Shown in pieces: positions 3,056-33,356 of a stretch of 33,356 nt of DNA; positions within the stretch are counted from its first letter, which is position 1, and every line of letters starts with the position of its first letter. The notes beneath the pieces were generated by a model. That model was given only the letters and a program-made list of their open reading frames with translations. It ran no database searches and was not told the DNA's origin. Origin of the DNA: Pyrinomonadaceae bacterium (lineage in GTDB: Bacteria > Acidobacteriota > Blastocatellia > Pyrinomonadales > Pyrinomonadaceae); the NCBI GenBank assembly GCA_031389475.1, contig JANMSP010000422.1:1-33356 (forward strand). Reading direction: 5' to 3'. Position numbers and translations under genes: made by a program.

Positions 3056-3057
3056 CA

Positions 3058-3567: not shown

Positions 3568-3698
3568 TAACCTCTTTCTACTTAGACCAATGTTTTCCTA
3601 AAAAGTTCCAATAGGTTATCATTTTAGACATCGAACCTAAAACCTCTAAAAGCAGCGAAACGGCCGCTCATTATGTCGAGGTAGCTCTTCCGCTTCCC

Positions 3699-14524: not shown

Positions 14525-14559
14525 AAACTTGAAACCTTGAACTTTGAACTTGAAACTCA
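14525..14559. repeat. Imperfect heptanucleotide tandem array (about 5 units) filling an intercistronic spacer
   Basis: The plus strand reads AAACTTG AAACCTTG AACTTTG AACTTG AAACTCA. The mRNA sense is GAGTTTCAAGTTCAAAGTTCAAGGTTTCAAGTTT. The array lies exactly between the upstream stop (14560-14562) and the downstream ATG (14524). Confidence 0.7.
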
Positions 14560-15957
14560 TTAGTAATTGCCTCCGTCGCGATCTGCGTCATCCCTGTCAG
14601 CCAGTCGTTTTTCAGCCGGAATCCTTGGCGGTGTTCCGCCACTGCCGGGAGCTTTGTTAATATCCAGTTTCTCAAGCGTTTCGCGCTCCTTTTGCAGGTC
14701 GGCGCGCATTTGAGTTTCCTTGCTTCGATCGAAATACGTATCGCCTTCGATCAATGTCATATCGACCCGCGAATAAACGCTGAAAGGATGTGCCGTCCAA
14801 ATCGCAAGGTCGGCATCTTTCCCGACTTCAATGGAACCGGTCCGCTTGTCGATTCCGAGCTGCATTGCCGGATTGAGCGTGATCATCTTCAGAGCATCTT
14901 CCTCCGGCACGCCTCCGTATTTCATTACTTTGGCCGCATCCAAATTCAATCTGCGAATACGCTCGTCGGAATCCGAATTGATCGAAACATTGACGCCGTT
15001 TTTCCACAGAATATAAGCGTTATAAGGAATCGCGTCGTATGCCTCGAGTTTGTAACTCCAGCTATCGGCAAATATAGAAACTCCGGTTTTCCGTTTGGCA
15101 ATCTCAGGAGCAATTTTGTAAGCTTCGAGGCCATGCTGAAGCGAAGCGATCCTAAATCCAAACTCGTCCGCAAGATTCAGCAAATTCCAATGCTCGTCCG
15201 AGCGGTATCCGTGGGCATGAACGAGGCGTTTTCCTTCCAGAATCTCAACGAGCGGCTGTAACTCGAGATCCGTTCGCGGCGGCATTTTTGTTTTCTTCGC
15301 CTTAAAATCATCCCACGACTGCTTGTAATCTCTCGCTCTGTTGAAAGCATCGCGGATCACTTCGAGCGTTCCCATTCGCGTCCGCGGGTATCGGGGAGTT
15401 TGCCCGCCCTGCGGATTGAAGCTCGAGCGTTTCGTATTTTCGCCCATCGCGAACTTAATACCGGAAGGAGCGTCCGCGACGATAAAATCCTCGACCGGTT
15501 TTCCCCATTTGAACTTCACCGTCGAATTCTGCCCGCCGATCGGATTTGCCGAACCGTGCAGCAGATTCGCCGCCGTCACGCCGCTCGCGAGAGCACGATA
15601 GATCGAGATATCGCCCGGATTCAACACATCTCGAATTCTCGTCATCGATGTGACAGCCAGTGATCCCTCATTTATAGCATCCATCATCGCGTGCGAATGA
15701 GCATCGATGATTCCTGGAGCTACAAATCGCCCAGTGGCATCGATAACTTTCGCGGATGTAGAAGCATTCAGATTCTTGCCGATGCGGGCGATCTTTCCGT
15801 TCTGGATCAAAATGTCCGTGTTCTCCAAAGTCCCGCGAGCGGCCGTCATAACCGTCGCATTCTTAATAAGAACTTCATTTTTTGCCTGAGCGGACGCGAT
15901 TGAGAATGAAATCAGGCTGATCGAGATCACCAGCGAAGCTAAAACAAAATTCCTCAT
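14560..15957 (-). CDS. Secreted amidohydrolase (metal-dependent hydrolase, HxH motif intact)
   Basis: It has a signal peptide (MRNFVLASLVISISLISFSIASAQA). PGIIDAHSHAM (HxH), VHAHGYRSDE, INSDSD and GSIEVGKDADL are all present. The start is moved to the ATG at 15957. Confidence 0.88.
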   Translation of the reverse strand: MRNFVLASLVISISLISFSIASAQAKNEVLIKNATVMTAARGTLENTDILIQNGKIARIGKNLNASTSAKVIDATGRFVAPGIIDAHSHAMMDAINEGSLAVTSMTRIRDVLNPGDISIYRALASGVTAANLLHGSANPIGGQNSTVKFKWGKPVEDFIVADAPSGIKFAMGENTKRSSFNPQGGQTPRYPRTRMGTLEVIRDAFNRARDYKQSWDDFKAKKTKMPPRTDLELQPLVEILEGKRLVHAHGYRSDEHWNLLNLADEFGFRIASLQHGLEAYKIAPEIAKRKTGVSIFADSWSYKLEAYDAIPYNAYILWKNGVNVSINSDSDERIRRLNLDAAKVMKYGGVPEEDALKMITLNPAMQLGIDKRTGSIEVGKDADLAIWTAHPFSVYSRVDMTLIEGDTYFDRSKETQMRADLQKERETLEKLDINKAPGSGGTPPRIPAEKRLADRDDADRDGGNY

Positions 15958-15997
15958 ATATCTTTTATCCCCAATTAAAAACTTTCCTTCCTTCTTA

Positions 15998-16030
15998 ACT
16001 GACAACCGGCCACTGACAACTGACCACTGG
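15998..16030. repeat. Heptanucleotide tandem array (about 5 units) in an intercistronic spacer
   Basis: The plus strand reads ACTGACA ACCGGCC ACTGACA ACTGACC ACTGGAT. The mRNA sense is CAGTGGT CAGTTGT CAGTGGC CGGTTGT CAGTTAA. It begins right after the upstream stop at 16032-16034. Confidence 0.7.
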
Positions 16031-16031
16031 A

Positions 16032-17702
16032 TCAAGGATTTCTTGTTCCCGAAAACGGCACCGTGCCCTGCGGCGAATCAACCGTTCCCGCGATCTGATT
16101 TCCGTTAACGCTTCCCTTCACCAGAATATCTATGGTCGAGCCGCCGAACTCAACTGTTCCGGCAAACGAAAATCCTTCCGCCGTTATCTTCCCATCCTTG
16201 ATTGGCGTCGAACCAAGCTGCGTCTGCATCGAGCCGGTCAGGGTATTTCCCTGTTGGATAAGCGCCAATGTCCCGGTCAGTGTCTGTCCGGGCACTTCGA
16301 TAGTAATGCTATAATTTCCTGCAACGGCGGCAACTGCCGGAGTTGTTCCAGCGGGCGGCGTCGCTCCGGGCCTTTCACCGGCGGCAGGTTTTGCCGGCTC
16401 CTTTTGCTCGAACAATTTACCATCGACAAAAACGTGTGAAATAAACTTCTCCTTGCCGAAAATATCGCCTTTGACCACGGTCAGGTTTGCGATCTTGCCC
16501 GTTTCTATTGAACCAAGCCTGTCGTTAACCCCAAGAAGTTCGGCGGTGGTTAAAGTCATAGAACGAACAGCTGCGTCCTTAGTTAATCCATTTTCCACCG
16601 CTTTTCCGGCATTTGCGAGAAAATCGTTTATACTCGTCATTCCGCCGGACTGGAATGCGACCTTCACCCCGGCTTGAGCAAGACGCGCCGCAGCCTTAGG
16701 AGTTTCGGCCCTGAATCTTAAAAGGTCCATGGTTTCCTGATCCGCTTCGGGCGACGATGATGTAGTTCTTTTCGGGAAATTCAGCGAAAGAAAAACCGGC
16801 ACGTCCTGGGCTTTCAGGCGGGCAGCGACCTTCCAGGCCTCCTGTCCGCCGGCAATTATCGCTTTTAGATTAAATTCCCTAGCAAAATCTAGTGCCCGGA
16901 CGATTTCGTTCTCACGATTAGCGTTGAAAACAACGGGGATTTGTCCGCTTAAAATCGGTATCAATGCTTCGAGCGAGCGGTCAGACGCCGGTCGCGTTAC
17001 GCCGCGCGGATTATCCGCGTAGATACGGTTCATTTCCTGCAAACGCTGTGCGTCGAGGAACATCTGCCGCATCGCCGAGAACGTTCCCAGGAGCGAACCC
17101 GGATATTGCCCGCCACCGACGGTCGTAAAAGTCACGTGTTCCGCAAACGGCGACTTTATCACCATTGCCGAAACGGATTCGCCCGCAAGATTGATAACCG
17201 CCGATTGGCCATTGAAAATGCCAGTCCGACCGACTGTCAAAACCGTTGTAAAACCGGCGTTTCGATTCGTATCGAATTGTGCGTCTCCGCCGCGAAGATC
17301 GATTTCCACCGTTTCTTCCGGACGAAGCCCTGCCGGATAGTTGGAATTCGATTGCGGAGCGGTCGCTTGTGTCCCAACAGTCACTACTTGAGGTCCACCG
17401 CCGGGAGTCGGCGTAGCAGGACGCGGGGCAGCCGTAACGCCAAGATTGGTCAGAGCATCGAAAAACCCGGGGTAAACGGTCAATCCCGTGCCGTCGAAGA
17501 CTTGAGCGTCTGCCGGTGTTTTGACCGATGCTCCAACCGATTCGATCAAACCGCCGCGGATCACAACGGTTCCCTTTTCAATAGTTTCGCCCGAAACCGT
17601 AACGACACGGGCGTTCGTGATAGCGTAAGTTTGGGCCGAAACGGAAATGCTGGAAAGCGAACTTATAACCGCAAAAGAAAGCAGAAATAGCTTTAATTTC
17701 AT
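16032..17702 (-). CDS. Secreted amidohydrolase-fold protein lacking the HxH motif, with an extra C-terminal beta domain
   Basis: It has a signal peptide (MKLKLFLLSFAVISSLSSISVSAQ). It is a paralog of 13190..14524 (ITNARVVTVSGETIEKGTV... and GGQEAWKVA are shared). The HxH position reads PGFFDALTNLG. A Pro/Ala/Thr linker leads to a roughly 100-aa tail (GNYSITIEVPGQTLTGTL...). The start is at the ATG at 17702. Confidence 0.82.
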   Translation of the reverse strand: MKLKLFLLSFAVISSLSSISVSAQTYAITNARVVTVSGETIEKGTVVIRGGLIESVGASVKTPADAQVFDGTGLTVYPGFFDALTNLGVTAAPRPATPTPGGGPQVVTVGTQATAPQSNSNYPAGLRPEETVEIDLRGGDAQFDTNRNAGFTTVLTVGRTGIFNGQSAVINLAGESVSAMVIKSPFAEHVTFTTVGGGQYPGSLLGTFSAMRQMFLDAQRLQEMNRIYADNPRGVTRPASDRSLEALIPILSGQIPVVFNANRENEIVRALDFAREFNLKAIIAGGQEAWKVAARLKAQDVPVFLSLNFPKRTTSSSPEADQETMDLLRFRAETPKAAARLAQAGVKVAFQSGGMTSINDFLANAGKAVENGLTKDAAVRSMTLTTAELLGVNDRLGSIETGKIANLTVVKGDIFGKEKFISHVFVDGKLFEQKEPAKPAAGERPGATPPAGTTPAVAAVAGNYSITIEVPGQTLTGTLALIQQGNTLTGSMQTQLGSTPIKDGKITAEGFSFAGTVEFGGSTIDILVKGSVNGNQIAGTVDSPQGTVPFSGTRNP

Positions 17703-17892
17703 AGCTGTAGTGGCGAAAAAAAAATTGAAATGTCTGAATTGATTGAAATTGCTGTTATGGGAAGGATAATCGAAAAGTTTCAAAATGCAAAATCTATACT
17801 ACCGGAACGCACGCATCCTGCCGGCGGTAGGCACTAAATGCTTAAATTTTTACGTTAAAGAGTCCTTGCAGAACTGCGGTCTGCTTTCTAAA

Positions 17893-18041
17893 CTAGTGCC
17901 GTGTTACCTAAGTAACAGTATTAATATTTTAGCCACGAATTGCACGAATCACACAAATAAAAGAAAACCTAAAAGAAAACCGATTAGTGTTATTTGTGTA
18001 ATTCGTGGCTAATGCTCCAAAACTTAGATTACTTAGCACTA
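17893..18041. mobile_element. MITE-like palindromic element, copy B
   Basis: The left end is CTAGTGCCGTGTTACCTAAGTAAC. The right end is AACTTAGATTACTTAGCACTA(T). An inner hairpin pairs TTAGCCACGAATT... with ...AATTCGTGGCTAA (about 17929-18012). The right terminus supplies the TAG stop of ada (18039-18041, minus strand). Confidence 0.65.
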
Positions 18042-19109
18042 TTTACCCTTTTCCTCCTTTAACAATTGTTCTTTTCGCCCAATGCCCCACCGGTAGCCGC
18101 TTATCTTTCCGTTCGAGGCGATCACGCGGTGGCAAGGAGTTGCCAAAGCGACCGGATTTGTCGCGCAAGCTCTTGCTACCGCTCTGACCGCTTTTGGATT
18201 TCCCAGATTTTCCGCAATCTGGCCGTAGGAACGCGTTTCTCCATAAGGAATATTGCGAAGTTCCGCCCATACACGCATTTGAAAAGCGCTTGCCCGCAGA
18301 TCGAGCGGCAGATTTAGAATCGTCTTTTCACCATCCAGGCTTTTTAAGATAATTTCAACAGATTCTTTCAATACGGAGTCATTTTTCTCCACATCCGCGG
18401 CAAAAAACTCCATTTTCAATTCACTTAAAAGCTCCGATTCATCATCGCCGAAACTTATCGAGCAAATCCCTTTCTCAGTCGACGCGACCAGCATTTTGCC
18501 AATCGGCGAATCCACGATCGTGTATCCGATTTTCATATCCTTCCCGCCTTTCTTATAAATCGCCGGAGTCATTCCGAGTGTTTCCCCGGCTTTCTCGTAA
18601 AGTGCCCGGCTCGATCCGAAACCGCTTTCGTACAGGGACGTCGTGACATCCATTTTCCTCACATTCTCCTTAAAATTCTCGATGCGGAACATATCCGAAA
18701 CCTCCTTGGGAGACAGCCCGAGCAACAGTTTAAAGGTCTTTTGCAAATGCCCGGCGCTGACATTCAAACGGCTGCCCAATTCAGCAATGGTCGGCGTTTC
18801 CATTTCATCCGACTTTAAGAATTGCAATGCATTTGCGACCAATTGAGCGTTGGCTCCGGGAAAATATTCGTCTTTCGGCTTGCATCGCAAACAGGCCCGA
18901 AATCCGGCGTCTTCCGCTTCGCCCGGCGTGATAAAAAACGAAACATTTTCCCGTTTCGGAGGCCTTGACGAACACGACGGGCGGCAAAAAATACCGGTCG
19001 TCCGGACCGCGAAATAGAACGCCCCGTCAAATTCGGCGGTTTTGTTTTCCAACGCCAGCCAGCGCCAATCGCTGAATTCATTCTGTTTAGATATTTGCTG
19101 CTTGATCAT
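18039..19109 (-). CDS. ada: Bifunctional Ada: methylphosphotriester Zn-Cys domain, AraC HTH and O6-alkylguanine-DNA alkyltransferase
   Basis: The N-terminus has CRPSC...CLRC (Ada Cys4 zinc site). The middle is an AraC-type HTH (...IAELGSRLNVSAGHLQKTFK...). The C-terminus has PCHRVI and the helix-turn-wing of Ogt. Confidence 0.9.
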   Translation of the reverse strand: MIKQQISKQNEFSDWRWLALENKTAEFDGAFYFAVRTTGIFCRPSCSSRPPKRENVSFFITPGEAEDAGFRACLRCKPKDEYFPGANAQLVANALQFLKSDEMETPTIAELGSRLNVSAGHLQKTFKLLLGLSPKEVSDMFRIENFKENVRKMDVTTSLYESGFGSSRALYEKAGETLGMTPAIYKKGGKDMKIGYTIVDSPIGKMLVASTEKGICSISFGDDESELLSELKMEFFAADVEKNDSVLKESVEIILKSLDGEKTILNLPLDLRASAFQMRVWAELRNIPYGETRSYGQIAENLGNPKAVRAVARACATNPVALATPCHRVIASNGKISGYRWGIGRKEQLLKEEKGK

Positions 19110-19412: not shown

Positions 19413-19808
19413 ATGCCGGCAATAGTTTTATTTGATGGAGTATGTAGTTTTTGCAACGGTGCGGTCAATTTCGTAATCGAACGCGACACCGCGGCTTACT
19501 TTAAATTCGCACCGCTGCAATCGGAGGCGGGCGAGAAATTGGCGGCGAAGTTTGGGATCGATACCATAGAGACTGACTCGGTAATCCTGATCGAAGACGA
19601 AAAGGCGTACACGCTCTCTACGGCGGCCTTAAAAATTGCCGGAAAACTCGACGGCATTTGGTCATGGGCATCGGTTTTCAAAATCGTTCCGCGGCCGGTT
19701 CGCGATTTTTTCTATACGACGTTCGCAAAGTATCGTTACCGTCTGTTCGGCAAACGGGATTCGTGTATGATGCCGACGCCGGAGATCCGGGCACGATTTT
19801 TGACCTAG
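19413..19808 (+). CDS. DCC1-like thiol-disulfide oxidoreductase family protein (DUF393)
   Basis: The N-terminal LFDGVCSFCNGAVNFVIERD (CxxC) and the roughly 130-aa size are typical. The TAG stop (19806-19808) lies inside the CTAG terminus of MITE copy C. Confidence 0.85.
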   Translation: MPAIVLFDGVCSFCNGAVNFVIERDTAAYFKFAPLQSEAGEKLAAKFGIDTIETDSVILIEDEKAYTLSTAALKIAGKLDGIWSWASVFKIVPRPVRDFFYTTFAKYRYRLFGKRDSCMMPTPEIRARFLT

Positions 19809-19999
19809 TGCTGTGTAACCTAAGTTCCTGTTATAGAAAAGGAGGTTCTCATTTCGTGTCGTTTTGTGTAAATTCGTGGTTTCAGTTCCTAAGCGCTTGA
19901 AGAACTGGAACCACAAAAATACACGAAAAAACACGAACACGAAATGCCGACACGCATGGAAAAAATTAGAATACAGAATTTTAGGTTACAAAGCACTAG
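19805..19999. mobile_element. MITE-like palindromic element, copy C
   Basis: CTAGTGCTGTGTAACCTAAG... pairs with ...CTTAGGTTACAAAGCACTAG. The arms pair over nearly the whole length (…TTCGTGTCGTTTTGTGTAAATTCGTGGTTTCAGTTC / GAACTGGAACCACAAAAATACACGAAAAAACACGAA…). Confidence 0.7.
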
Positions 20000-20171
20000 T
20001 GCAGTGTAAACCAAGTTTTCAGGAAGTTTATTTGCTTTGTATTTCGTGGCGTTTTGTGAATTTTCGTGGTTCCAGTCTTAAAGGCCGAAGAACTGAAACC
20101 ACAAAAGCACACAAAACAACACGAAAAAAGAAACACGAAACCAGTTCAAAACATAGTTTACAGAGCACTAG
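19996..20171. mobile_element. MITE-like palindromic element, copy D, in tandem with C and sharing its CTAG
   Basis: CTAGTGCAGTGTAAACCAAG... pairs with ...GTTTACAGAGCACTAG. The inner arms are TTTCGTGGCGTTTTGTGAATTTTCGTGGTTCCAGTC and GAACTGAAACCACAAAAGCACACAAAACAACACGAAA. The CTAG at 19996-19999 is shared with copy C. Confidence 0.7.
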
Positions 20172-20226: not shown

Positions 20227-20508
20227 ATGAAAGCAATTTGGAACGGACAAGTTTTAGCGGAGAGCGAAGCCACCGTAGTCGTCGAAGGAAATCATTATTT
20301 CCCGGCCGAATCACTTGACACGGAGTATTTACAGCCGACCGAAACCCACTCTGTATGTGGCTGGAAAGGAACCGCAAATTATTATGACGTTGTCGTAAAT
20401 GGCGAAACGAATGGCGATGCGGCATGGTATTACCCGGAAGCGAAAGACGAAGCTAAGAATATAGAAAACTACGTCGCCTTTTGGAAAGGCGTCGAAGTAA
20501 CGGAATGA
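20227..20508 (+). CDS. DUF427 domain protein
   Basis: 93 aa. WNGQVLAES...VEGNHYFP...CGWKG.ANYY...AWYY... is the characteristic DUF427 pattern. AGGAAG lies upstream. The stop overlaps the mutS2 ATG (ATGA at 20505-20508). Confidence 0.85.
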   Translation: MKAIWNGQVLAESEATVVVEGNHYFPAESLDTEYLQPTETHSVCGWKGTANYYDVVVNGETNGDAAWYYPEAKDEAKNIENYVAFWKGVEVTE

Positions 20509-23039
20509 GTTATTCGCTCGAAACATTAGAATACGCAAAGCTGCTCGAACTTGTCAGCCGCCACGCTCAAACGCCGATGGGTGAAGAGCGTTTCGCGATA
20601 TTGCGCCCGAAAACGAGCAGAATAGAGGTCGAACGCGATCTGGCGGCGGTTTCGGAAACAATAGTGTTGAATGAAGAAAAGCAGATCTCGTGGTCATTCA
20701 GCGGACTGGAAGATCCGGGCGACGCCGTTGCGATTCTGAGAATTAAGAACGCCACGCTCGAGCCGAACCTTCTCCTCGAAGTCTCTCGCGTTTGTAATCA
20801 GGCTTTGTTTGCCCGATCTTCGATTCAGCCGGAAAAGGAAGTTGCACCTGTCTTATGGCAGATCGTCGAAAATATTCCACCGAGTTTATTGGCCGCGATA
20901 GAAAAGATCAACAAAAAGCTGCTTCCCGGCGGCGAAATCGACGATTCGGCTTCACCGGAACTTGCGAAAATCCGCCGCGAGATAAATTCGCAACGGGCAC
21001 GTTTGACCAAATCTCTCGAAGCCGTAATGAGAAATTCCGGTAATGCGATCCAGGACGAGATCGTCACCGTCCGCAACGAGCGCTTTGTTATTCCCGTCAA
21101 ATCCGATTTTCGCGGCAAGGTCGGCGGTGTCGCCCACGGTTTTTCGTCGTCGGGCGCGACCGTCTTCATCGAACCGTTGGAGGCAATAGAAGCCAACAAC
21201 GAGCTGCAAAATCTAAAAGGCAAGGAAGAACGAGAGATAGCCCGAATTCTTTTTGCATTGACCGAAGAATTGCGCGAGCAGCTTCCCGCAATTGAAACAT
21301 CAGTCCAAGCGGTTGCCGAGCTTGACTTCATTAAAGCTAAAGTAGAATTCGGCAGAAAATTCAAAGCCATAGTACCGGAAATATCTGATGAAGAGACGCT
21401 CGATTTCGTTGATGCCCGCCATCCTTTGCTGGACGAAAATCTCCGCGCGCAGGCCGCAAAAGCCGGGTCAGTACCGGGAGCCATAGCGACTGGGTTCTTA
21501 AACGATGATAAAACTGGAACCACAAAAACACACGAAATAACACTAAATAAGAAAGAAATGCATTCCGGCATAGTCCCTGTTTCATTCAAGCTGACCAAAC
21601 AAAACGGCGTCATGATAATCTCCGGCGCCAACGCCGGCGGAAAGACCGTCGTCATGAAAACCGCAGGCCTGCTTTCTCTAATGGCGATCTCCGGCCTTCC
21701 CGTTCCCGCCGCGTCCGCGAAAATTCCGTTTTATCATTCAGTTCTCGCGGACATCGGCGACCATCAATCGCTGGCCGCAAATCTCTCGACATTTTCATCG
21801 CATATGTCGAATATCGCCGGAATGATGGAGCATTGCCAATCTCCTTCGCTTGTTTTGCTTGACGAAGTGGGCACCGGTACCGATCCTGAAGAAGGCTCGG
21901 CTCTCGGCGTTGCGATCGTCGATCATTTTCGCCGAAAATGCGGTTCTCAGGTAATTGCTTCGACTCACTATCGGGGCCTAAAAATCTATGCGGCCAACGA
22001 CGAAAATGTTATCAACGCCTCGGTCGAGTTCAATGAAAAAACATTGCAGCCAACGTATAAACTTTTAATCGGTTTAGCCGGAGCGTCTTCCGGTATTGAA
22101 ATCGCCGGGCGTTTCGGGATACTACCCGAAGTTATTGATAACTCCCGGAGTAATCTGGATATTTCCGCTAAGAAAGCCGAAGATTATCTGCGAAAGCTGC
22201 AAACGGAATCAACGCTTGCCGAAGATCTGCGGATCGCCCTCGAAGAAGAACGCGAAGCTGTCGCGATGAAATATGCCGGACTCGAGATAGAGGCGAAACA
22301 GAAAGAAAAAGCACGCCAGAAGCAATTTCAGTCGGAGCTTGCCCAGACGATCGAAGAATTTGAACGTCAATCGAAAACATTTATCAAATCCATCGAAGAC
22401 AAGGCTCTCCGCAACAAATTGGACAAAGAACGCGACACCCGCAAAGCTGAATTGAATCGGGCAGTATTGTCCAAAGTCCAAAGTCCAAAGTCCAGAAATG
22501 GTGGATTATGGCAGGCAGAAACACGACCGGTCGGAAGTGTGTCAGATTCAGCATTTGAGATTAGTAACTCGCCGATTGTCGTCGGCAGCAAAGTTTACAC
22601 CTCATTCGGCAACATCGGCACCGTCGAAAAAATGGACAAGGAAGTCGCGGAAGTATTAGTCGGCGGAATGCGGCTGCGTGAAAAGATAAAGGATTTACAG
22701 GCGGTCGCGGAAGAACAAATTTCAACCGAAGGCAAGCTCGAAAAGCTCCAAAGCCAAGCCCAATCCGCAAATCTCCGCCTCGATACCGAAGATATGAACG
22801 CCGAGCTAAACCTGATCGGCCAAACAACCGCCGACGCCGAATACGAGATCGACCGCTTCCTCGACGAAGCCTACCTCGCCTCCCTGCCCCGCGTCCGCAT
22901 AATCCACGGCTTCGGCACCGGAGCATTAAAAAATTTCGTCCACCATTTCCTAAAAGGCCACCCGCACATCGACAAGTTCAGCTTCGCCCCGCAAGATCAA
23001 GGCGGCCATGGTGCTACAATAGCGGAAATGAAGCAATAG
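20505..23039 (+). CDS. mutS2: Endonuclease MutS2 (MutS domains III-V plus a C-terminal Smr domain)
   Basis: It has ARHPLL, Walker A GANAGGKT, STFSSHM, Walker B LLDEVGTGTDP and THY. The C-terminal Smr domain has RIIHGFGTGALK. The start is taken at MSYSLETLEY (20505). It carries two repeat-derived in-frame segments (see findings). Confidence 0.92.
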   Translation: MSYSLETLEYAKLLELVSRHAQTPMGEERFAILRPKTSRIEVERDLAAVSETIVLNEEKQISWSFSGLEDPGDAVAILRIKNATLEPNLLLEVSRVCNQALFARSSIQPEKEVAPVLWQIVENIPPSLLAAIEKINKKLLPGGEIDDSASPELAKIRREINSQRARLTKSLEAVMRNSGNAIQDEIVTVRNERFVIPVKSDFRGKVGGVAHGFSSSGATVFIEPLEAIEANNELQNLKGKEEREIARILFALTEELREQLPAIETSVQAVAELDFIKAKVEFGRKFKAIVPEISDEETLDFVDARHPLLDENLRAQAAKAGSVPGAIATGFLNDDKTGTTKTHEITLNKKEMHSGIVPVSFKLTKQNGVMIISGANAGGKTVVMKTAGLLSLMAISGLPVPAASAKIPFYHSVLADIGDHQSLAANLSTFSSHMSNIAGMMEHCQSPSLVLLDEVGTGTDPEEGSALGVAIVDHFRRKCGSQVIASTHYRGLKIYAANDENVINASVEFNEKTLQPTYKLLIGLAGASSGIEIAGRFGILPEVIDNSRSNLDISAKKAEDYLRKLQTESTLAEDLRIALEEEREAVAMKYAGLEIEAKQKEKARQKQFQSELAQTIEEFERQSKTFIKSIEDKALRNKLDKERDTRKAELNRAVLSKVQSPKSRNGGLWQAETRPVGSVSDSAFEISNSPIVVGSKVYTSFGNIGTVEKMDKEVAEVLVGGMRLREKIKDLQAVAEEQISTEGKLEKLQSQAQSANLRLDTEDMNAELNLIGQTTADAEYEIDRFLDEAYLASLPRVRIIHGFGTGALKNFVHHFLKGHPHIDKFSFAPQDQGGHGATIAEMKQ
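21467..21562. repeat. Repeat-element-derived segment embedded in frame in mutS2
   Basis: 21467-21499 matches 33285-33317 at 31/33 nt. 21512-21543 matches the copy C right arm at 19903-19934 at 30/32 nt. Both counts are from hand alignment. Confidence 0.65.
22469..22496. repeat. Heptanucleotide tandem repeat inside the mutS2 coding sequence
   Basis: GTCCAAA x3 (22469-22489) followed by GTCCAGA (22490-22496). It encodes ...SKVQSPKSR... in the linker before the C-terminal KOW-like/Smr region. Confidence 0.8.
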
Positions 23040-23313: not shown

Positions 23314-24003
23314 ATGAAATACTTTAATTCGCTCTTATATTTGGTAGCGCTGCTCGTTCTTGCTGAGATCCAATTCGGCCAGATAAAGCCGCAAGCGATT
23401 TTGATTGATGAGTTTGGCACGCTAGGTTGCGAAGATTTAAGTGCCCGTCAGGATGCTTTTCTCTCTGAAATTCAGAATGAGAAAAACGCGAAAGGCTACG
23501 CTGTGATTTACGCAGAAAGTGGTGATTTAAAAAAGAATCTTCGTTATGAAAGTTATATTAATGGCCATTTGAATGCCCGACGTTTTAATAATCATGAATT
23601 TATTACTGTACGAGGCCCTGAGAGGGAAAAATTAAAGATAGAGTTTTGGAAAGTACCAAAAGATGCTGACACACCTGTTTTTCCGACCGCGACCTGGTCA
23701 TATGTCATTCCACAAACGACGAAACCCTACATCTTCACTGCGGATACTTATGGTGGCGGACCCTGTGAAAGCACTTCTTACGTCAAACTCTTTGCGGACC
23801 TTCTTTTAGCAAATCCTAAGTCTCATGGCAATGTGGTCATTCGAGATAAAACAAATCGTAATTTTCGAAAACGCCAAGTCGGAGTCGTTCGAGAACTGGT
23901 CAATAGATACAACATTCCCCTTCATCGCCTCAAATTTTTCTTTGTCAAAGATAAGAACTATCCTTACGATTTTACTGATGTGGAATATTGGTTGGTTCCT
24001 TGA
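23314..24003 (+). CDS. Secreted hypothetical protein with an internal two-fold domain duplication
   Basis: It has a signal peptide (MKYFNSLLYLVALLVLAEIQFGQ). Two halves of about 95 aa each show KP..(I/F)..D.(F/Y)G..(G)CE...G.V(V)I...(E)(F/Y)W.VP. It is AT-rich by eye. The start is at 23314 (GGAG upstream) rather than 23233. Confidence 0.65.
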   Translation: MKYFNSLLYLVALLVLAEIQFGQIKPQAILIDEFGTLGCEDLSARQDAFLSEIQNEKNAKGYAVIYAESGDLKKNLRYESYINGHLNARRFNNHEFITVRGPEREKLKIEFWKVPKDADTPVFPTATWSYVIPQTTKPYIFTADTYGGGPCESTSYVKLFADLLLANPKSHGNVVIRDKTNRNFRKRQVGVVRELVNRYNIPLHRLKFFFVKDKNYPYDFTDVEYWLVP

Positions 24004-24017
24004 AGAACATAGCGATG

Positions 24018-24140
24018 ATGCTCTACGACCAGAACTTCATCGACGATCTTAAACCCGGTTTCAATCTGGTGCGGATAGTCGAACACTATGCTGCGATCAA
24101 GAAAAAAAGTTCGAATTGGATGGATTGCTGTCCATTTCAT
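24018..24140 (+). pseudogene. Remnant of the dnaG 5' end (codons 1-41), duplicated
   Basis: MLYDQNFIDDLKPGFNLVRIVEHYAAIKKKSSNWMDCCPFH aligns to dnaG codons 1-41 (24888-25010). That is about 101/123 nt and about 31/41 aa by hand alignment. Homology ends right after CCPFH, and the frame terminates 25 codons later. Confidence 0.8.
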
Positions 24141-24204
24141 TTAGCAAAAGCTCCATACCGAAATTACATTGACAAAATTGTTGGATAAAGAAGAAAATTC
24201 ACAT

Positions 24205-24435
24205 ATGACAGCAACAGTCGAATTAACATTGCCGGATAGCGTCGATTTGAGCGATATCGATATCAAGATGATAGTCGCGGCGAAGCTGTTCGATATGGGC
24301 GAACTGTCATCGGGACAAGCTGCGAAGATAGTTGGCATAACAAGGCGTGAGTTTTTAGAAACCGTCGGCAAGTATGGTGTTTCGATATTTCAGTATGATG
24401 CCGACGAATTGGAAGAAGATCTCGCAAGATTATGA
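24205..24435 (+). CDS. UPF0175-family antitoxin
   Basis: 76 aa. ...AAKLFDMGELSSGQAAKIVGITRREFLETVGKYGVSIF... matches the UPF0175 pattern of a helix, an HTH-like segment and the 'GI(P/S)' end. There is a 4-nt ATGA overlap with the downstream PIN gene. Confidence 0.8.
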   Translation: MTATVELTLPDSVDLSDIDIKMIVAAKLFDMGELSSGQAAKIVGITRREFLETVGKYGVSIFQYDADELEEDLARL

Positions 24436-24887
24436 CCCAACAAATCGTCATTGCGGATGCAAGCTGCCTGATAACGCTCGACAACATCAACGAAAATGAC
24501 TTACTTCCGAAGTTATTTGACCAAATTTATGTGACTCCCGAGGTAGCTGGCGAAGTAGGTGAGTCCTTGCCTGAATGGGCCTCTCAAAGGTCAAGCTCAA
24601 ATCAGTCCCTCGTAAATCAACTTTCTGTCGAACTCGAAATCGGGGAGGCTTCCTCGATCGCACTTGCTCTCGAACTCTCAGATTGCCTTCTTATAATTGA
24701 TGAGAAAAAAGGACGCCGCATCGCTAAACAGTTAGGGCTAAACATCACCGGCACCTTTGGAATCATCATGAAGGGATTCGAGGCCGGTTTGGTCGATGCT
24801 CTAAGTACAATTTTGGAGCGACTCGAACGAGTGGATTTTCGTATTTCCGAGACGCTTAAGGAGAAAATGCGAGCTAAAATCCAATAA
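24432..24887 (+). CDS. PIN-like toxin (DUF3368 family)
   Basis: 151 aa. It has the N-terminal IVIADASCLITL (PIN Asp), GEASSIALALE, and LLIIDEKKGRRIAKQLGLNITGTFGII, which is the DUF3368 signature. The stop TAA is immediately followed by the dnaG ATG. Confidence 0.8.
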   Translation: MTQQIVIADASCLITLDNINENDLLPKLFDQIYVTPEVAGEVGESLPEWASQRSSSNQSLVNQLSVELEIGEASSIALALELSDCLLIIDEKKGRRIAKQLGLNITGTFGIIMKGFEAGLVDALSTILERLERVDFRISETLKEKMRAKIQ

Positions 24888-26735
24888 ATGCTCTACGACC
24901 AATACTTCATCGACGATCTCAAAAGCCGTGCGGACCTGGTGCGGATTATCGAACCGTATGCTCCGCTAAAGAAAAAGGGTTCGAATTGGATGGGATGCTG
25001 TCCGTTTCATCAGGAAAAGACGCCTTCGTTTTCGGTGAGCCCGACGAAGGGTTTTTATAAATGTTTCGGGTGCGGGAAGGGCGGGAACGCTTATACTTTT
25101 TTGATGGAGATGGAGGGTTTGAACTTTCCCGAGGCGATCCAGCGTGTGGCCGAGATTTCCGGCATTCCGCTGCCCGAACCGGTTGACGATAAGCAGTACG
25201 CTCAAAGCAAAAAGAAAAAGGAAGAAAAGAAAAAGATCGCCGACGAGGTGATCGAACTGAACCGCATCGCTCTTGATTTTTGGGAAGCGGAACTGCAGTC
25301 GAAGAATGCGAAGGCAAAAGCTGCACGTGAATATCTGGAGACTCGCGGGATCACCGAAGCAACGCAAAAGGCTTTTCGCATCGGATTTTCTCCCGATAGC
25401 TGGGATTCGCTGCTGAATCATCTCAAAGAAAAAAAGGCCGACGAAAAACTCATTGAGCAAAGCGGCCTGGTCTCGGTAAATGAAGAAAAAGACCGCGTAT
25501 TCGACCGTTTTCGCGGACGTATAATGTTTCCGGTGCTCGATGTAAACGGCAATCCCGTTGCATTCGGCGCCCGTGCGATGGGCGACGACCAGCCGAAATA
25601 TCTCAATTCGCCGGAAACCCCTGCGTACATTAAAGGCCAGCATCTTTACGGCCTTTCCCACGGCAAAGAAGAGATCAGAAAAAAGAAATTCGTGATTCTC
25701 GTCGAAGGTTATTTGGACCTAATCGCTCTTTATCAATTCGGAATTAGTAACACCGCAGCGAGCCTCGGCACAGCCTTTACGCCCGAACAATCAAAACTCC
25801 TTAGCCGTTTTGCGAAAAAGGTCGTGATAAATTACGACGGAGATAATGCCGGAAAAAAAGCCGCCCGGAGAGCTGTCGAAGAACTTTTGACGCAGGATTT
25901 CGACGTAAAGGTACTCTTGCTGCCCGACGGTAACGATCCTGACGATTTTCTACGCGAACACGGCGCCGACAGCTACAACGAGGCCCGTGGGAAATCACAG
26001 CCTTATCTTCAATTTGTTTTGGACGCCGCGATGGCCGGGCGAAATTTGAACGTCGCCAAACAAAAGGCTGACGCCATTGAAGATGTGCTGCCCGTCTTGG
26101 CAATCCCCAAAAATCCGATACAAAAACGAGAGAGTTTCGATCAAGCGATGAACTTTTTCCGTGTGGAGGACGCGGGCTTAAAGCGGGAATTGTGGAATGC
26201 GGTCAAGCACGGAAATAAACTTGAACCGGAAGCGTTGAAAAGGCAGGTGAAGCGAGCAACGCAGGTAAAAATGACTGTGGCGGAGCAGCATTTGTTGGAA
26301 TTGTTAATTTACGATCCGGAACTTCAGGAGAAAATCCTCGATCAACTGGAAGAAACCGATTACGAATCCCTTCCGACCGCTCCGATTTTTCGGGCATTGT
26401 ATGAACTTCAATCGAAGAAAATCCCGATGTCGCACGAGAATTTGATGGAATTGATCGGCGATGACGAAGCGGCCGGCGACTTTGTGCCGCTGCTGCTGAT
26501 GACCGAGCCAAAACGCGAGGGCGGGGAAGTGATCGACGATGTACTGCACGATGCTGAAAACTGCGTTTTCACACTTCGTTTAATGGCAATTTCCAGCCGA
26601 ATCGCCGAGATTTCGCAGGAGGCAATGCATGCCGAACGTAGCGGCGAAGGAATTCTTCACAACCGCCTTACCTTCGAACAGCTCGAGCTTGAAAGAATAA
26701 AGCGCGAGCTACTTAATAGAATCGTCCAAAACTGA
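24888..26735 (+). CDS. dnaG: DNA primase
   Basis: CHC2 zinc finger (CCPFHQEKTPSFSV...YKCFGCGKGG), RNA polymerase core, TOPRIM (ILVEGYLDLIAL...NYDGDNAG) and a C-terminal DnaB-interaction-like helical domain. Confidence 0.93.
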   Translation: MLYDQYFIDDLKSRADLVRIIEPYAPLKKKGSNWMGCCPFHQEKTPSFSVSPTKGFYKCFGCGKGGNAYTFLMEMEGLNFPEAIQRVAEISGIPLPEPVDDKQYAQSKKKKEEKKKIADEVIELNRIALDFWEAELQSKNAKAKAAREYLETRGITEATQKAFRIGFSPDSWDSLLNHLKEKKADEKLIEQSGLVSVNEEKDRVFDRFRGRIMFPVLDVNGNPVAFGARAMGDDQPKYLNSPETPAYIKGQHLYGLSHGKEEIRKKKFVILVEGYLDLIALYQFGISNTAASLGTAFTPEQSKLLSRFAKKVVINYDGDNAGKKAARRAVEELLTQDFDVKVLLLPDGNDPDDFLREHGADSYNEARGKSQPYLQFVLDAAMAGRNLNVAKQKADAIEDVLPVLAIPKNPIQKRESFDQAMNFFRVEDAGLKRELWNAVKHGNKLEPEALKRQVKRATQVKMTVAEQHLLELLIYDPELQEKILDQLEETDYESLPTAPIFRALYELQSKKIPMSHENLMELIGDDEAAGDFVPLLLMTEPKREGGEVIDDVLHDAENCVFTLRLMAISSRIAEISQEAMHAERSGEGILHNRLTFEQLELERIKRELLNRIVQN

Positions 26736-28596: not shown

Positions 28597-28631
28597 ATAC
28601 GCAGGCGGCATGATCGCCTGCGTATTTTTTT
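28597..28631 (+). terminator. Rho-independent terminator of rpoD
   Basis: An 11-bp perfect stem pairs ATACGCAGGCG (28597-28607) with CGCCTGCGTAT (28615-28625). The loop is 7 nt (GCATGAT) and a T7 run follows to 28631. Confidence 0.85.
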
Positions 28632-28711
28632 GTCCTTTAAGTGGACGAGTTCCTACCCACGTATTACGCCGTCAATTTTTTTCCTATTCTTGTAGCGCAT
28701 CCGAGTTACTT

Positions 28712-29938: not shown

Positions 29939-29940
29939 AC
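29886..29940. repeat. Perfect 22-bp-stem inverted repeat covering the 3' end and stop codon of the GT-C-like gene
   Basis: GTTCAAGCTTCAGCTTGTCTTC (29886-29907) pairs with GAAGACAAGCTGAAGCTTGAAC (29919-29940). The loop is 11 nt. The stop TGA at 29936-29938 sits in the 3' arm. Confidence 0.85.
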
Positions 29941-29948
29941 TTAGAACT

Positions 29949-32875: not shown

Positions 32876-33256
32876 ATGAGTATCACAACGCAAATCTTCT
32901 GGCTGGCAATCCTTTCGATGGTTGTGGCCTCCATAGCATGGACGGTCACGCAGGAAGAGATCTTTCGCGAATGGCGTGAAGCGTTCGAAGAAAAGAGCAA
33001 AACCGCGACGAACATTCTCGTCAAGAAATTCTTTTATGTCTTCACCTGCGAGTACTGCTTTAGCCATTGGGTAACGATCCTAATATTGATCCTGACCGGC
33101 TTTCGTATGCTGATCGACGATTGGCGGGGAGTCGTTCTGGCGTTTTTTATATTACCGTGGCTGGCGAATCAGTGGATGAGTCTTTACCGCAGGCTTCGCG
33201 TCGGCATCAAACACGAAGCGGCTCTCGTGGAAGTTGTCGAAGCAAAGAAGGACTAG
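32876..33256 (+). CDS. Small 3-TM membrane protein (possibly DUF1360-like)
   Basis: 126 aa with hydrophobic helices and a CEYCFSHWV motif. It is the last gene of the cluster. The TAG stop (33254-33256) lies in the CTAG of the downstream partial element. Confidence 0.6.
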   Translation: MSITTQIFWLAILSMVVASIAWTVTQEEIFREWREAFEEKSKTATNILVKKFFYVFTCEYCFSHWVTILILILTGFRMLIDDWRGVVLAFFILPWLANQWMSLYRRLRVGIKHEAALVEVVEAKKD

Positions 33257-33356
33257 TGATATTGAAAGTTAAACCGCGGACTCTGTCAGAACCGGGAGCG
33301 ATAGCGACTGGGTTCTTTGCGTTAGTGGCTCAGTTCTGTTGACATTCAACAAAATT
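33253..33356. mobile_element. Partial repeat element starting with CTAGTG, truncated by the window end
   Basis: It begins CTAGTGATATTGAAAGTT... directly at a gene stop, like copies B and C. It contains the 33-nt block GTCAGAACCGGGAGCGATAGCGACTGGGTTCTT (33285-33317), which is also found inside mutS2. Confidence 0.45.

What the first reader, a model, noticed from the sequence alone, without database searches (positions are those of the whole stretch)
21467..21562. Repeat-element DNA embedded in frame inside mutS2, between the HPLL motif and Walker A
Between ARHPLL and the IISGANAGGKT P-loop, the ORF encodes about 45 residues (DENLRAQAAKAGSVPGAIATGFLNDDKTGTTKTHEITLNKKEMHSG). As I recall characterised MutS2 proteins (for example Bacillus MutS2), only a handful of residues precede the (V/I)VP... 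strand there. The extra DNA is repeat-derived. 21467-21499 matches the partial element at 33285-33317 at 31/33 nt. 21512-21543 matches the right arm of MITE copy C (19903-19934) at 30/32 nt. The junk reverse-strand ORFs in the supplied track carry the same FRVFLWFQF peptide at both loci. The frame stays open and all downstream ATPase and Smr motifs are intact. This looks like a tolerated or exapted in-frame insertion, analogous to the Rickettsia palindromic elements found inside ORFs, located next to the nucleotide-binding site of a recombination/repair nuclease.
Basis: partly seen in the sequence, partly recalled or inferred. Interest (0 to 1): 0.7.

Follow-up and report, generated by a model that had tools for sequence, protein, structure and literature searches.

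The report
Repeat-derived in-frame insert in mutS2
A 36-residue stretch of the MutS2 protein of an uncultured soil/sediment acidobacterium is made of pieces of the genome's own small palindromic repeats, and across 150+ related species this loop and a second linker of the gene have been refilled repeatedly with different repeat pieces.

Summary
Window 21467-21499 matches 33285-33317 at 31/33 nt, and 21512-21543 matches 19903-19934 at 30/32 nt; shuffles give 0 such matches. Both lie in frame inside mutS2 (20502-23039), between RHPLL and the strand before the P-loop.

Orthologue comparison delimits a 41-codon variable segment (21447-21569). "Empty" Pyrinomonadaceae orthologues have 5 codons there, and B. 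subtilis MutS2 has about 7.

The insert is old and decayed. It is shared with a 91%-identical orthologue, has no hairpin left, and shows omega 0.60 against 0.037 for the rest of the gene.

This is not a one-off:
- In 153 related mutS2 genes the site holds 146 different peptides of 5-96 aa, built from at least 10 REP/REPIN/heptamer-repeat families.
- A second site, the flexible linker before the KOW domain (window 22470-22583), behaves the same way. In the window it carries a (GTCCAAA)n run and an "AETRPVGSV" module.
- The modules are conserved at the nucleotide level, third codon positions included.
- They also occur between genes and in linkers of other genes.

Best reading: tolerated, selection-filtered, RPE-like in-frame repeat insertions at two permissive landing pads.

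Exaptation, transcription and structure could not be tested. It is a new member of a known kind, with an unusual family-wide turnover pattern.

The parts
20502..23039 (+). mutS2 coding sequence (844 aa plus stop), the host gene
   Evidence: ORF. Pfam MutS_V 371-551 and Smr 769-844. 72-91% identical to Pyrinomonadaceae MutS2. Matches B. subtilis MutS2 7qv3/8qpp at E 1e-111.
21447..21569 (+). Site-1 variable segment: 41 codons (AQAAKAGSVPGAIATGFLNDDKTGTTKTHEITLNKKEMHSG) between RHPLLDENLR and IVPVSFKL
   Evidence: Delimited against empty-site orthologues with a 5-codon loop and against B. subtilis MutS2. Shared with L161. Omega 0.60 against 0.037 for the rest of the gene. No RNA structure, z -0.13.
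21464..21499 (+). Module M1, left arm of a REPIN-like hairpin repeat (GGGTCAGTACCGGGAGCCATAGCGACTGGGTTCTT; peptide GSVPGAIATGF)
   Evidence: 31/33 to window 33285-33317. Near-identical to both arms of a complete 33-nt-arm hairpin in the spacer upstream of mutS2 in L162. Further copies in L075, L166 and viral contigs L164/L165. Metagenome contig depth rises from about 6.5 to 158-955 in the bin that holds it.
21509..21566 (+). Module M13, right arm of the CACGAA/TTCGTG-type hairpin carried by MITE copies C and D (core 21512-21543; peptide TGTTKTHEIT)
   Evidence: 30/32 to 19903-19934 and 37/43 to 20091-20133. Complementary to 20030-20080 (I2). Alignment A1.
22470..22583 (+). Site-2 variable segment: 38 codons (SKVQSPKSRNGGLWQAETRPVGSVSDSAFEISNSPIVV) in the linker between the coiled coil and the KOW-like domain
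   Evidence: Variable in all 122 orthologues where it was delimited, 26-53 aa, with the same module repertoire. Differs even from the 91%-identical L161. [quoted passage not shown]
22469..22494 (+). Heptanucleotide tandem run (GTCCAAA) x 3.7 inside site 2
   Evidence: Identical 26-nt run sits at site 1 of L018 and L060. Heptamer-repeat arms are common in the site-1 inserts.
22512..22543 (+). Module M2 (AGGCAGAAACACGACCGGTCGGAAGTGTGTC; peptide AETRPVGSV)
   Evidence: 90-93% identical to site-1 inserts of L002, L011, L019, L053, L062, L067, L072 and L075. 100 copies in 162 mutS2 genes, all in the same strand and frame. Third codon positions conserved. Metagenome 31-mer depth 188-602. One in-frame copy in carA of L166.
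19805..19999 (.). MITE copy C (TIR CTAGTGCTGTGTAACCTAAGTT) carrying the M13-type hairpin. Intergenic relative of the insert.
   Evidence: (D4, I10, I3, I5). Lies in a DCC1-DUF427 spacer of 419 bp, which is 39-59 bp in L162/L163.
19996..20171 (.). MITE copy D, abutting C at a shared CTAG, with the same inner hairpin type
   Evidence: (I11, I3, I5).
33254..33356 (.). Partial element at the window end, with a degenerate TIR and an M1 left arm at 33285-33317
   Evidence: (D12).

Best explanation
The extra 36 residues are a fossil of small palindromic repeat DNA that landed in frame in a short loop of MutS2 and was kept because the loop tolerates it.

Shown:
- The segment joins the left arm of a REPIN-like hairpin repeat (M1) to the right arm of a second hairpin type (M13). 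Both also occur between genes in the same window.
- The ancestral loop is 5 codons.
- The insert predates the split from a 91%-identical relative. It has lost its hairpin and evolves under strongly relaxed protein-level constraint.
- The event is one of many. In Pyrinomonadaceae, this loop (site 1) and the flexible linker before the KOW domain (site 2) are two landing pads. Modules of at least 10 repeat families have been inserted, deleted and swapped there in multiples of three.
- Those families include GTAG-containing REP-like units, a CGTC-containing double hairpin, and hairpins whose arms are heptanucleotide runs.

Inferred:
- Modules are copied from a genomic pool, probably by a REP/RAYT-type or template-switching process.
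- Hairpin-prone DNA attracts further insertions and deletions.
- The M1-left/M13-right chimera arose when the inner arms of two adjacent hairpins were deleted.
- Selection removes everything except stop-free, hydrophilic, in-frame versions at structurally permissive positions. This would explain the constant outer boundaries and the strand and frame bias.
- The protein simply carries a floppy extra loop near the ATPase domain.
For: - Repeat identity. A full intergenic hairpin of the same module is in L162.
- Copies C and D are insertions relative to the syntenic spacers in L162/L163.
- Empty alleles share a GSENE-like 15-nt loop. B. subtilis has about 7 residues there.
- 146 distinct site-1 peptides in 153 genes, 5-96 aa long.
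- Parsimony on the NJ tree: at least 9 empty/occupied changes and 4-22 gains or losses per module family.
- Close relatives differ by clean 45-nt and 27-nt module indels or by swapped arms.
- The clade at 86-88% identity has an unrelated insert.
- Site 2 shows the same pattern.
- Modules are conserved at third codon positions at 0.80-0.87, with the M2 core at 0.9 or more. Invariant peptide motifs of the same genes show 0.61-0.66.
- For most modules the opposite strand encodes stops or hydrophobic peptides.
- 25% of site-1 inserts are intact strong hairpins (z < -3), against 2% of control coding stretches. The window copy is decayed.
- Omega is 0.60 in the insert against 0.037 in the rest of the gene.
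- The same modules occur between genes.
- They also occur in frame in other genes: the carA inter-domain linker and a propeller loop of a histidine kinase.
- Independent assembly support.
Against: - No transcript or peptide evidence exists; no RNA run holds the gene.
- Both AlphaFold models were low confidence (pLDDT 58 and 49), so "surface loop" is inferred from homology and tolerance, not shown.
- No transposase (RAYT or other) was identified, so the copying mechanism is conjecture.
- M2 and M3 were never seen in 1.56 Mb of DNA flanking mutS2. M2 always uses one frame although other open hydrophilic frames exist. A pure "random insertion plus filter" model does not predict this.
- Synonymous divergence inside the insert (pS 0.25) is lower than in the rest of the gene (0.52). 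This hints at a nucleotide-level constraint or a later exchange.
- The NJ tree used for event counts is approximate.
Confidence: 0.8

Rival explanations
1. Exapted element. The repeat-derived segments are kept because they do something for MutS2 or for its gene. Possible roles: tuning ATPase or dimer dynamics next to the P-loop, setting the reach of the KOW/Smr arm, or acting as DNA/RNA-level signals inside the mutS2 message (protein or sRNA binding site, pause site).
For: - Occupancy is very high: 140 of 153 genes at site 1 and all genes at site 2.
- Module nucleotides are held constant, third positions included.
- M2 is always in one strand and frame, although other frames are open.
- pS in the window insert is lower than in the rest of the gene.
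- A quarter of the inserts keep very stable hairpins inside the ORF.
Against: - Content, length and order of modules differ between close relatives.
- Thirteen genes lack any insert at site 1.
- The window copy has lost its hairpin and evolves with omega 0.60.
- The same modules sit in unrelated genes and between genes.
- Nucleotide conservation is equally explained by recent copying from a conserved pool.
Confidence: 0.1
2. Contingency or phase-variation locus. Heptanucleotide runs and hairpins inside mutS2 promote slippage, and reversible frameshifts switch MutS2 on and off.
For: - (GTCCAAA) x 3.7 at 22469-22494, with many heptamer runs at both sites in orthologues.
- A unit of 7 nt is not a multiple of 3, so gain or loss of one unit shifts the frame.
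Against: - All 162 mutS2 genes examined are intact through both sites.
- Observed indels between relatives are multiples of 3.
- Runs are short, 3-5 units.
- The contig data cannot show rare variants. A 1-nt gap at 21524 in one X1 contig of different depth is most simply another repeat copy.
Confidence: 0.04
3. Not repeat-derived. The segment is merely a fast-evolving low-complexity linker, or a metagenome assembly chimera, and the matches to intergenic DNA are coincidental.
For: - The region is compositionally simple.
- Metagenome assemblers can join contigs at repeats.
- The two matches are short (33 and 32 nt).
Against: - Zero matches of that quality in 100 shuffles.
- The same 29-36-nt module recurs in other genomes as complete intergenic hairpins.
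- Third-position conservation of modules.
- An independent assembly is identical over 20400-21955.
- The same insert is present in a second MAG.
Confidence: 0.02

Closest known systems
Rickettsia palindromic elements (RPEs) inserted in frame in protein-coding genes (as reviewed in PMC10969869 and cited in PMC3733652)
   Same: - Short repeat-family DNA with palindromic potential inside ORFs.
- Keeps the reading frame and adds a peptide segment to otherwise conserved housekeeping proteins.
- Orthologues without the insert exist.
- Insertions sit in positions that appear compatible with folding.
   Different: - RPEs are about 100-150 bp units of 10 defined families, each encoding a conserved peptide, and each insertion is usually a single element.
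- Here the inserts are mosaics of 25-60-nt modules from many families, often half-elements.
- The same two positions of one gene are refilled again and again across a whole bacterial family.
- The host is a free-living acidobacterium, not a reduced intracellular genome.
Intragenic GTAG- and CGTC-tagged REPs, many of them in replication and repair genes (Di Nocera et al. 2013, PMC3733652)
   Same: - REP-like stem-loops, single or as inverted dimers, encoding 20-30 (up to 82) residues inside known genes.
- Repair genes are over-represented there (uvrA, recBCD, dnaE2, polA).
- Different REPs lie at about the same site of recB in two Xanthomonas species.
- Several modules here contain GTAG (M1 GGTAGCG, M2 GGTAGGG, M8 AGTAGCC). 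The reverse strand of M3 has CGTC followed by a stem-loop (sequences).
   Different: - MutS2 and Acidobacteriota are not among the cases in that paper's text or held supplements.
- The scale differs: 2 sites, at least 10 families, over 150 species.
- Nucleotide-level conservation of the modules in coding context was not described there.
- No RAYT gene was linked to the modules here.
REPIN-RAYT systems (Bertels and Rainey 2011, PMC3116915)
   Same: Module M1 occurs as two inverted 33-nt copies separated by a 13-nt loop (L162 2548-2628). That is the REPIN architecture. In-frame versions read SEPPAVAGG...PPATAGGSD.
   Different: - REPINs are described as extragenic and as one or a few families per genome tied to a single RAYT.
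- Here many families coexist, some arms are heptamer runs, and no RAYT was found in the DNA examined.
MITEs that create in-frame fusions (for example Coxiella QMITE1, PMC5896051; review PMC10969869)
   Same: Non-autonomous repeat DNA inside ORFs. The window also holds true MITEs with 22-nt TIRs that carry the same inner modules.
   Different: The mutS2 insert has no TIRs or target-site duplication. The TIR sequence CTAGTGC...TAA contains stop codons, so a whole MITE could not be read through.
Cyanobacterial STRR heptanucleotide repeats (own knowledge, not checked here)
   Same: Tandem 7-nt units, often as inverted blocks able to form hairpins.
   Different: STRRs are described as intergenic. 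Here heptamer-arm hairpins are translated as 7-residue periodic peptides (for example QLSVISYQLS...TDNRQPTTDN).

Membership tests
In-frame intragenic palindromic repeat (RPE-like / intragenic REP) | The inserted DNA belongs to a multi-copy repeat family of the same genome | tested here: met
   M1: 21467-21499 and 33285-33317. M13: 21512-21543, 19903-19934 and 20091-20133. Metagenome depth spikes over the modules.
In-frame intragenic palindromic repeat (RPE-like / intragenic REP) | The reading frame is preserved and the host gene's conserved motifs are intact | tested here: met
   The 844-aa ORF is uninterrupted. MutS_V and Smr domains are found. The rest of the gene has omega 0.037.
In-frame intragenic palindromic repeat (RPE-like / intragenic REP) | Orthologues exist that lack the insert at the same position | tested here: met
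   13 of 153 genes have a 5-7-residue loop. B. subtilis MutS2 has about 7 residues.
In-frame intragenic palindromic repeat (RPE-like / intragenic REP) | The element is palindromic, that is, it can form a hairpin | tested here: not met
   The window copy folds no better than shuffles (z -0.13; z -0.56). It consists of one arm each of two hairpin types. The feature is met for the family: 25% of orthologous inserts have z < -3 and intergenic M1 is a perfect hairpin.
In-frame intragenic palindromic repeat (RPE-like / intragenic REP) | The insert lies in a surface loop or linker compatible with the fold | tested here: inconclusive
   Both AlphaFold2 models have low confidence (pLDDT 58 and 49) over the whole ATPase domain. 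[quoted passage not shown]
In-frame intragenic palindromic repeat (RPE-like / intragenic REP) | The insert is transcribed and translated with the host protein | not testable with these tools
   No RNA run holds the gene. Only one DNA metagenome run holds it.
REP/REPIN mobilised by a RAYT | 20-40-nt imperfect palindromes tagged by GTAG (or CGTC), often as inverted dimers | tested here: inconclusive
   GTAG occurs inside M1, M2 and M8, and CGTC on the reverse strand of M3 (sequences). An M1 inverted dimer is in L162. The tag is internal rather than terminal in M1 and M2, and several modules are heptamer runs with no tag.
REP/REPIN mobilised by a RAYT | A cognate RAYT (Y1 transposase) gene is present in the genome, typically flanked by the repeats | not tested
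   No Y1_Tnp hit among the window ORFs scanned or among the precomputed Pfam lists of L162, L163, L166 and L171. Whole genomes could not be fetched.
MITE | Terminal inverted repeats and a target-site duplication flank the inserted copy | tested here: not met
   The 22-nt TIR CTAGTGCTGTGTAACCTAAGTT occurs 8 times in the window, never in mutS2. The insert ends show only a 6-nt GCCGGG/TCCGGC complementarity.
Intein or self-splicing intron | Size and junction motifs that allow removal from the protein or RNA | tested here: not met
   The insert is 123 nt / 41 aa, which by established knowledge is far below intein size (over 130 aa) or group I/II intron size. There is no Rfam hit in the window. Junction residues are not conserved among orthologues.

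The most novel reading that the evidence does not exclude
mutS2 of Pyrinomonadaceae may contain two actively targeted "landing pads", not merely tolerant ones.

- Repeat modules would be directed there, or to pre-existing hairpins there, by a structure- or sequence-specific copying mechanism.
- At least one module (M2, GAAACACGACCGGTAGGGAGTGTG) would be a coding-adapted repeat that lives mainly in linkers of proteins.
- M2 would be held constant at the nucleotide level because the DNA or RNA itself is recognised.

That would make it a bacterial counterpart of exon-resident mobile modules. It would also link small repeats functionally to a recombination/ribosome-rescue ATPase.
Probability: 0.2. 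Interest if true: 0.7.

Novelty: new member of a known kind. Interest (0 to 1): 0.45.

Why it matters
In-frame colonisation of genes by small repeats has been documented mainly in Rickettsia and a few REP-rich genomes. Here it appears in a free-living, abundant soil and sediment lineage, with a natural replicate series.

- More than 150 orthologues carry independent insertions, deletions and swaps at the same two positions. This is ready-made material for studying how selfish repeats create and erase protein segments, what filters act on them (strand, frame, hydrophilicity), and how much extra loop an ABC-type ATPase tolerates next to its P-loop.
- Practically, it warns annotators. Hypervariable stretches in Acidobacteriota proteins, and the many short "hypothetical proteins" with peptides such as SPPYEGGVAAASADGVV or PPATAGGSD, are repeat read-through and not protein families.
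- Repeats inside conserved marker genes can also break or chimerise metagenome assemblies.

Tried and rejected
- Structure: two AlphaFold2 runs (full length with 52 sequences; ATPase fragment with 119 sequences) gave pLDDT 58 and 49. The whole ATPase domain scored below 50, so no fold search was attempted.
- RNA families: the Rfam gathering scan of the window found nothing.
- Expression: no RNA runs hold the gene.
- The 30-aa representative search returned only two unrelated tandem-repeat proteins.
- M2 is absent from viral contigs.
- The metagenome scan gave no relative closer than 81%, so within-species polymorphism could not be examined.
- Apparent 3.3-kb mutS2 matches in L012, L031, L097 and L125 were only secondary Smr-like hits downstream, not large insertions. 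L029 is intact.
- A peptide-regex census was abandoned as biased to the MutS2 frame and replaced by a DNA-level census.
- Considered and rejected as explanations: intein or intron (too small, no motifs); a conserved peptide motif under protein-level selection (third positions conserved); a complete MITE insertion (no TIRs).
Full report
**Observation**

The two nucleotide matches are real.
- Window 21467-21499 equals 33285-33317 at 31/33 positions (family D12). A search allowing 3 mismatches finds only these two sites, and none in 100 dinucleotide-preserving shuffles.
- 21512-21543 equals 19903-19934 at 30/32 positions (29/31 for 21513-21543, again with 0 expected).
- The second match continues at lower identity. 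It is 81% over 53 nt to copy C and 86% over 43 nt to 20091-20133 in copy D. It is also complementary to 20030-20080.
- The reverse-strand ORFs at both loci contain FRVFLWFQF.

**The host gene**

The host ORF (ATG 20502 to stop 23039) is MutS2, with Pfam MutS_V at 371-551 and Smr at 769-844. Its best relatives are MutS2 of Pyrinomonadaceae/Blastocatellia MAGs at 72-91% identity.

Against the solved B. subtilis MutS2 (7qv3, 8qpp) the alignment breaks after RHPLL (query 310, chain 313) and resumes at query 360-361, chain 321-322. The characterised protein therefore has about 7 residues where the window has 49.

**Delimiting the insert**

In 120 database homologues, the span from RHP to the end of the P-loop ranges from 41 to 87 residues. 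The 41-residue form reads RHPLLEENLR-GSENE-IVPVSF.

The window's variable segment is therefore 41 codons, 21447-21569, a net gain of 36 residues. The closest relatives compare as follows.

| Relative | aa identity | Site-1 content |
|---|---|---|
| L161, a separate MAG contig | 91% | Same insert, base for base alignable |
| L162, L163, L002 | 86-88% | Unrelated 29-residue insert (FSPPRHRDAE + KAETRPVGSV) |
| L001/L081 and L142 | 80-81% | Two further, different inserts |

**Not an artefact**

An independently assembled Logan contig from the only run that holds this genome (a freshwater sediment metagenome) covers 20400-21955 with no difference.

**What the pieces are**

The window holds four complete elements and one partial element with 22-nt terminal inverted repeats CTAGTGCTGTGTAACCTAAGTT. 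They are A 17-271, B 17893-18042, C 19805-19999, D 19996-20171 and E 33254-end. Each encloses a different inner hairpin.

Copies C and D are insertions. The DCC1-DUF427 spacer is 419 bp here but 39-59 bp in the syntenic loci L162 and L163.

The mutS2 insert has no TIR. It consists of two inner-module halves.
- The first is the left arm of the module in element E (M1, GGGTCAGTACCGGGAGCCATAGCGACTGGGTTCTT).
- After 12 nt comes the right arm of the hairpin carried by C and D (M13).

In L162 the same M1 sequence forms a complete hairpin with 33-nt arms and a 13-nt loop, in the spacer just upstream of mutS2. That is a REPIN-like architecture.

The window's chimera of two half-hairpins folds no better than shuffled sequence (z -0.13). 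I infer that it is what remains after the inner arms of two adjacent hairpins were deleted.

**A family-wide pattern**

I fetched 160 mutS2 loci of related species.
- In 153 genes with a complete core, site 1 holds 146 different peptides of 5-96 residues, median 30.
- They are mosaics of recognisable modules:
  - SEPGAVATG...PPATAGGSD (the two arms of M1-type hairpins)
  - KAETRPVGSV (M2)
  - SPPYEGGVAAASADGVV (M3)
  - NPKSKIQNPKS (M4)
  - QRRRDAE (M5)
  - PQINTDEHGF (M6)
  - SPHVSKG (M8)
  - hairpins whose arms are heptanucleotide runs such as CAGTTAT, GTCCAAA, AAATCCA and CGACAAC
- Thirteen genes have an essentially empty loop with a shared GSENE-like sequence, which I take as the ancestral state.
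- On a neighbour-joining tree, at least 9 empty/occupied changes are needed, and 4-22 gains or losses per module family. The tree is approximate.
- Close pairs differ by clean in-frame module indels: 45 nt in L009 vs L089 and 27 nt in L157 vs L132. Others differ by exchange of one hairpin arm, as in L018/L060/L112.

Window 22470-22583 is the linker before the KOW-like domain. It contains (GTCCAAA) x 3.7 and a 31-nt M2 copy. That copy is 90-93% identical to site-1 inserts of eight other species.

This linker is variable in every orthologue where it was delimited (26-53 residues) and uses the same modules. It differs even between the window and L161. In B. subtilis MutS2 this is the flexible loop between the coiled coil and KOW (PMC10897456).

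**DNA elements, not peptide motifs**

Within modules, third codon positions are as conserved as first and second positions: mean major-allele frequency 0.80-0.87, and 0.9 or more throughout the M2 core. In invariant peptide motifs of the same genes (ISGANAGGKT, DEVGTGTDP, GFSSSGATV) the third-position value is 0.61-0.66.

A DNA census over 0.40 Mb of mutS2 and 1.56 Mb of flanks gave the following.
- M1, M4, M5, M6, M8 and M13 occur both inside mutS2 and outside it. Outside copies lie on both strands and often form inverted pairs.
- M2 (100 copies) and M3 were found only in mutS2 in that sample.

Both M2 and M3 do exist elsewhere.
- M3 peptides occur in 45 short "hypothetical proteins". I found M3 between genes in L166 and at four places in 19 kb of L171.
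- M2 sits in frame in the linker between the two domains of carA in L166.
- M2 31-mers reach a summed depth of 188-602 in three metagenomes, where all mutS2-like sequence reaches only 10-36.
- M4 lies in frame in a propeller loop of a histidine kinase in L048 and L061.

For most modules the opposite strand or other frames give stops or hydrophobic peptides. This explains the strand and frame bias inside genes by selection. For M2 and M3 this explanation is incomplete.

A quarter of site-1 inserts are still very stable hairpins inside the ORF (z < -3, MFE down to -70 kcal/mol), against 2% of control coding stretches.

**Constraint on the window's insert**

The table compares the window with L161.

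| Region | dN | dS | omega | pS |
|---|---|---|---|---|
| 41 insert codons | 0.187 | 0.31 | 0.60 | 0.25 |
| Remaining 637 codons | 0.032 | 0.88 | 0.037 | 0.52 |

The peptide is therefore nearly unconstrained, which argues for tolerance rather than exaptation. The lower pS in the insert is unexplained. It may reflect nucleotide-level constraint, later exchange, or small-sample noise.

**Mechanism**

Shown:
- repeat origin
- in-frame residence
- ancestral empty loop
- repeated independent gain, loss and swap at two fixed positions
- nucleotide-level conservation
- relaxed peptide constraint

Inferred:
- Modules are copied from a genomic pool by a REP/RAYT-like or template-switching process.
- Hairpin DNA promotes further insertion and deletion.
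- Selection keeps only stop-free, hydrophilic, multiple-of-three products at positions where the protein tolerates extra loop.

The outer boundaries are set by the conserved flanks. In a few genes (L020, L065, L129 and others) the insert even replaces EENLR. This fits a selective boundary rather than a site-specific integration site.

Rivals are scored in the report sections: exaptation or an RNA/DNA signal, heptamer-driven phase variation, and artefact or mere low complexity.

**Comparison with what is known**

The closest precedents are the Rickettsia palindromic elements and the intragenic GTAG/CGTC REPs of Di Nocera et al. (PMC3733652). That paper already noted three things:
- enrichment of such inserts in replication and repair genes
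- inserts encoding 20-82 residues
- different REPs at about the same site of recB in two Xanthomonas species

MutS2 and Acidobacteriota do not appear in that paper or its held supplements. My searches found no description of the mutS2 hot spots.

As a member of the "in-frame intragenic repeat" kind, the window's insert meets three defining features: repeat-family membership, frame preservation and empty orthologues. The window copy fails the hairpin criterion because it is decayed. Structure and expression could not be tested.

It is not a MITE copy, an intein or an intron.

**Verdict**

The finding is correct and its interpretation is essentially right. The thing itself is a new member of a known kind.

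The added value is the family-wide picture. There are two landing pads in one conserved gene, refilled by at least 10 repeat families across more than 150 species. There is also the unexplained behaviour of module M2.

Noticed in passing
window 22470-22583 (heptamer run 22469-22494; M2 22512-22543): A second repeat-filled segment of the same mutS2 gene, in the linker before the KOW-like domain. It holds (GTCCAAA) x 3.7 plus a 31-nt module (AETRPVGSV) that is 90-93% identical to site-1 inserts of eight other species. The linker is variable in all orthologues and differs even from the 91%-identical L161.
   Followed up: yes
window 17-271, 17893-18042, 19805-19999, 19996-20171, 33254-33356: A MITE family with 22-nt TIRs CTAGTGCTGTGTAACCTAAGTT: four complete copies and one partial copy in 33 kb. 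Each encloses a different inner hairpin module. Only one TIR-like hit occurs in 170 related loci, so the family looks lineage-specific and recently expanded. Copies C and D abut at a shared CTAG and fill a spacer that is 39-59 bp in relatives.
   Followed up: partly
window 23988-24887 and 24888-25010: The first ~45 codons of dnaG are duplicated upstream at 81% identity (24018-24140; Pfam Zn_ribbon_DnaG hit on the 66-aa ORF 23988-24188). The duplicate is separated from the intact dnaG (24888-26735) by a two-gene UPF0175 + DUF3368 cassette (24169-24435, 24432-24887). It looks like a toxin-antitoxin-like cassette inserted into the 5' end of dnaG that brought or left a replacement 5' end.
   Followed up: partly
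L166 3415-3450 (carA 2890-4041): Module M2 (GAAATACGACCGGTAGGGAGTGTG) lies in frame in carbamoyl-phosphate synthase small chain, residues 178-188 (EAEIRPVGSVS). This is the linker between the CPSase_sm_chain (10-135) and GATase (199-375) domains.
   Followed up: partly
L048 9447-9483 and L061 777-809: The heptamer module M4 is in frame (NSIENRKSKIQNQ / NRIQNPKPGIQNQ) at the same position of a Reg_prop/Y_Y_Y sensor histidine kinase in two related species.
   Followed up: partly
L075, mutS2 site 1: Site 1 is 96 residues long there and contains three tandem copies of an 84-nt unit made of modules M5 + M2 (FSTQRRKDAEAETRPVGSVPHPAGTTA).
   Followed up: no
window 22512-22543; runs X1-X3: M2 31-mers appear as 31-nt unitigs with summed depth 188-602 in three sediment metagenomes, against 10-36 for all mutS2-like sequence. 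Yet M2 was absent from 1.56 Mb of DNA flanking mutS2 in 160 genomes. Where most copies reside is unknown.
   Followed up: partly
window 13190-17783: Three tandem amidohydrolase paralogues lie on the minus strand (13190-14560, 14560-16035, 16032-17783). They share 66-nt and 43-nt stretches at 73-79% identity (repeat families D5 and D8). This is ordinary paralogy.
   Followed up: no
window 29876-29950: A 32-nt inverted repeat, 91% complementary with an 11-nt spacer, straddles the end of ORF 28610-29938 and the start of the UbiA-family gene at 29949. It may be a terminator-like or repeat hairpin.
   Followed up: no
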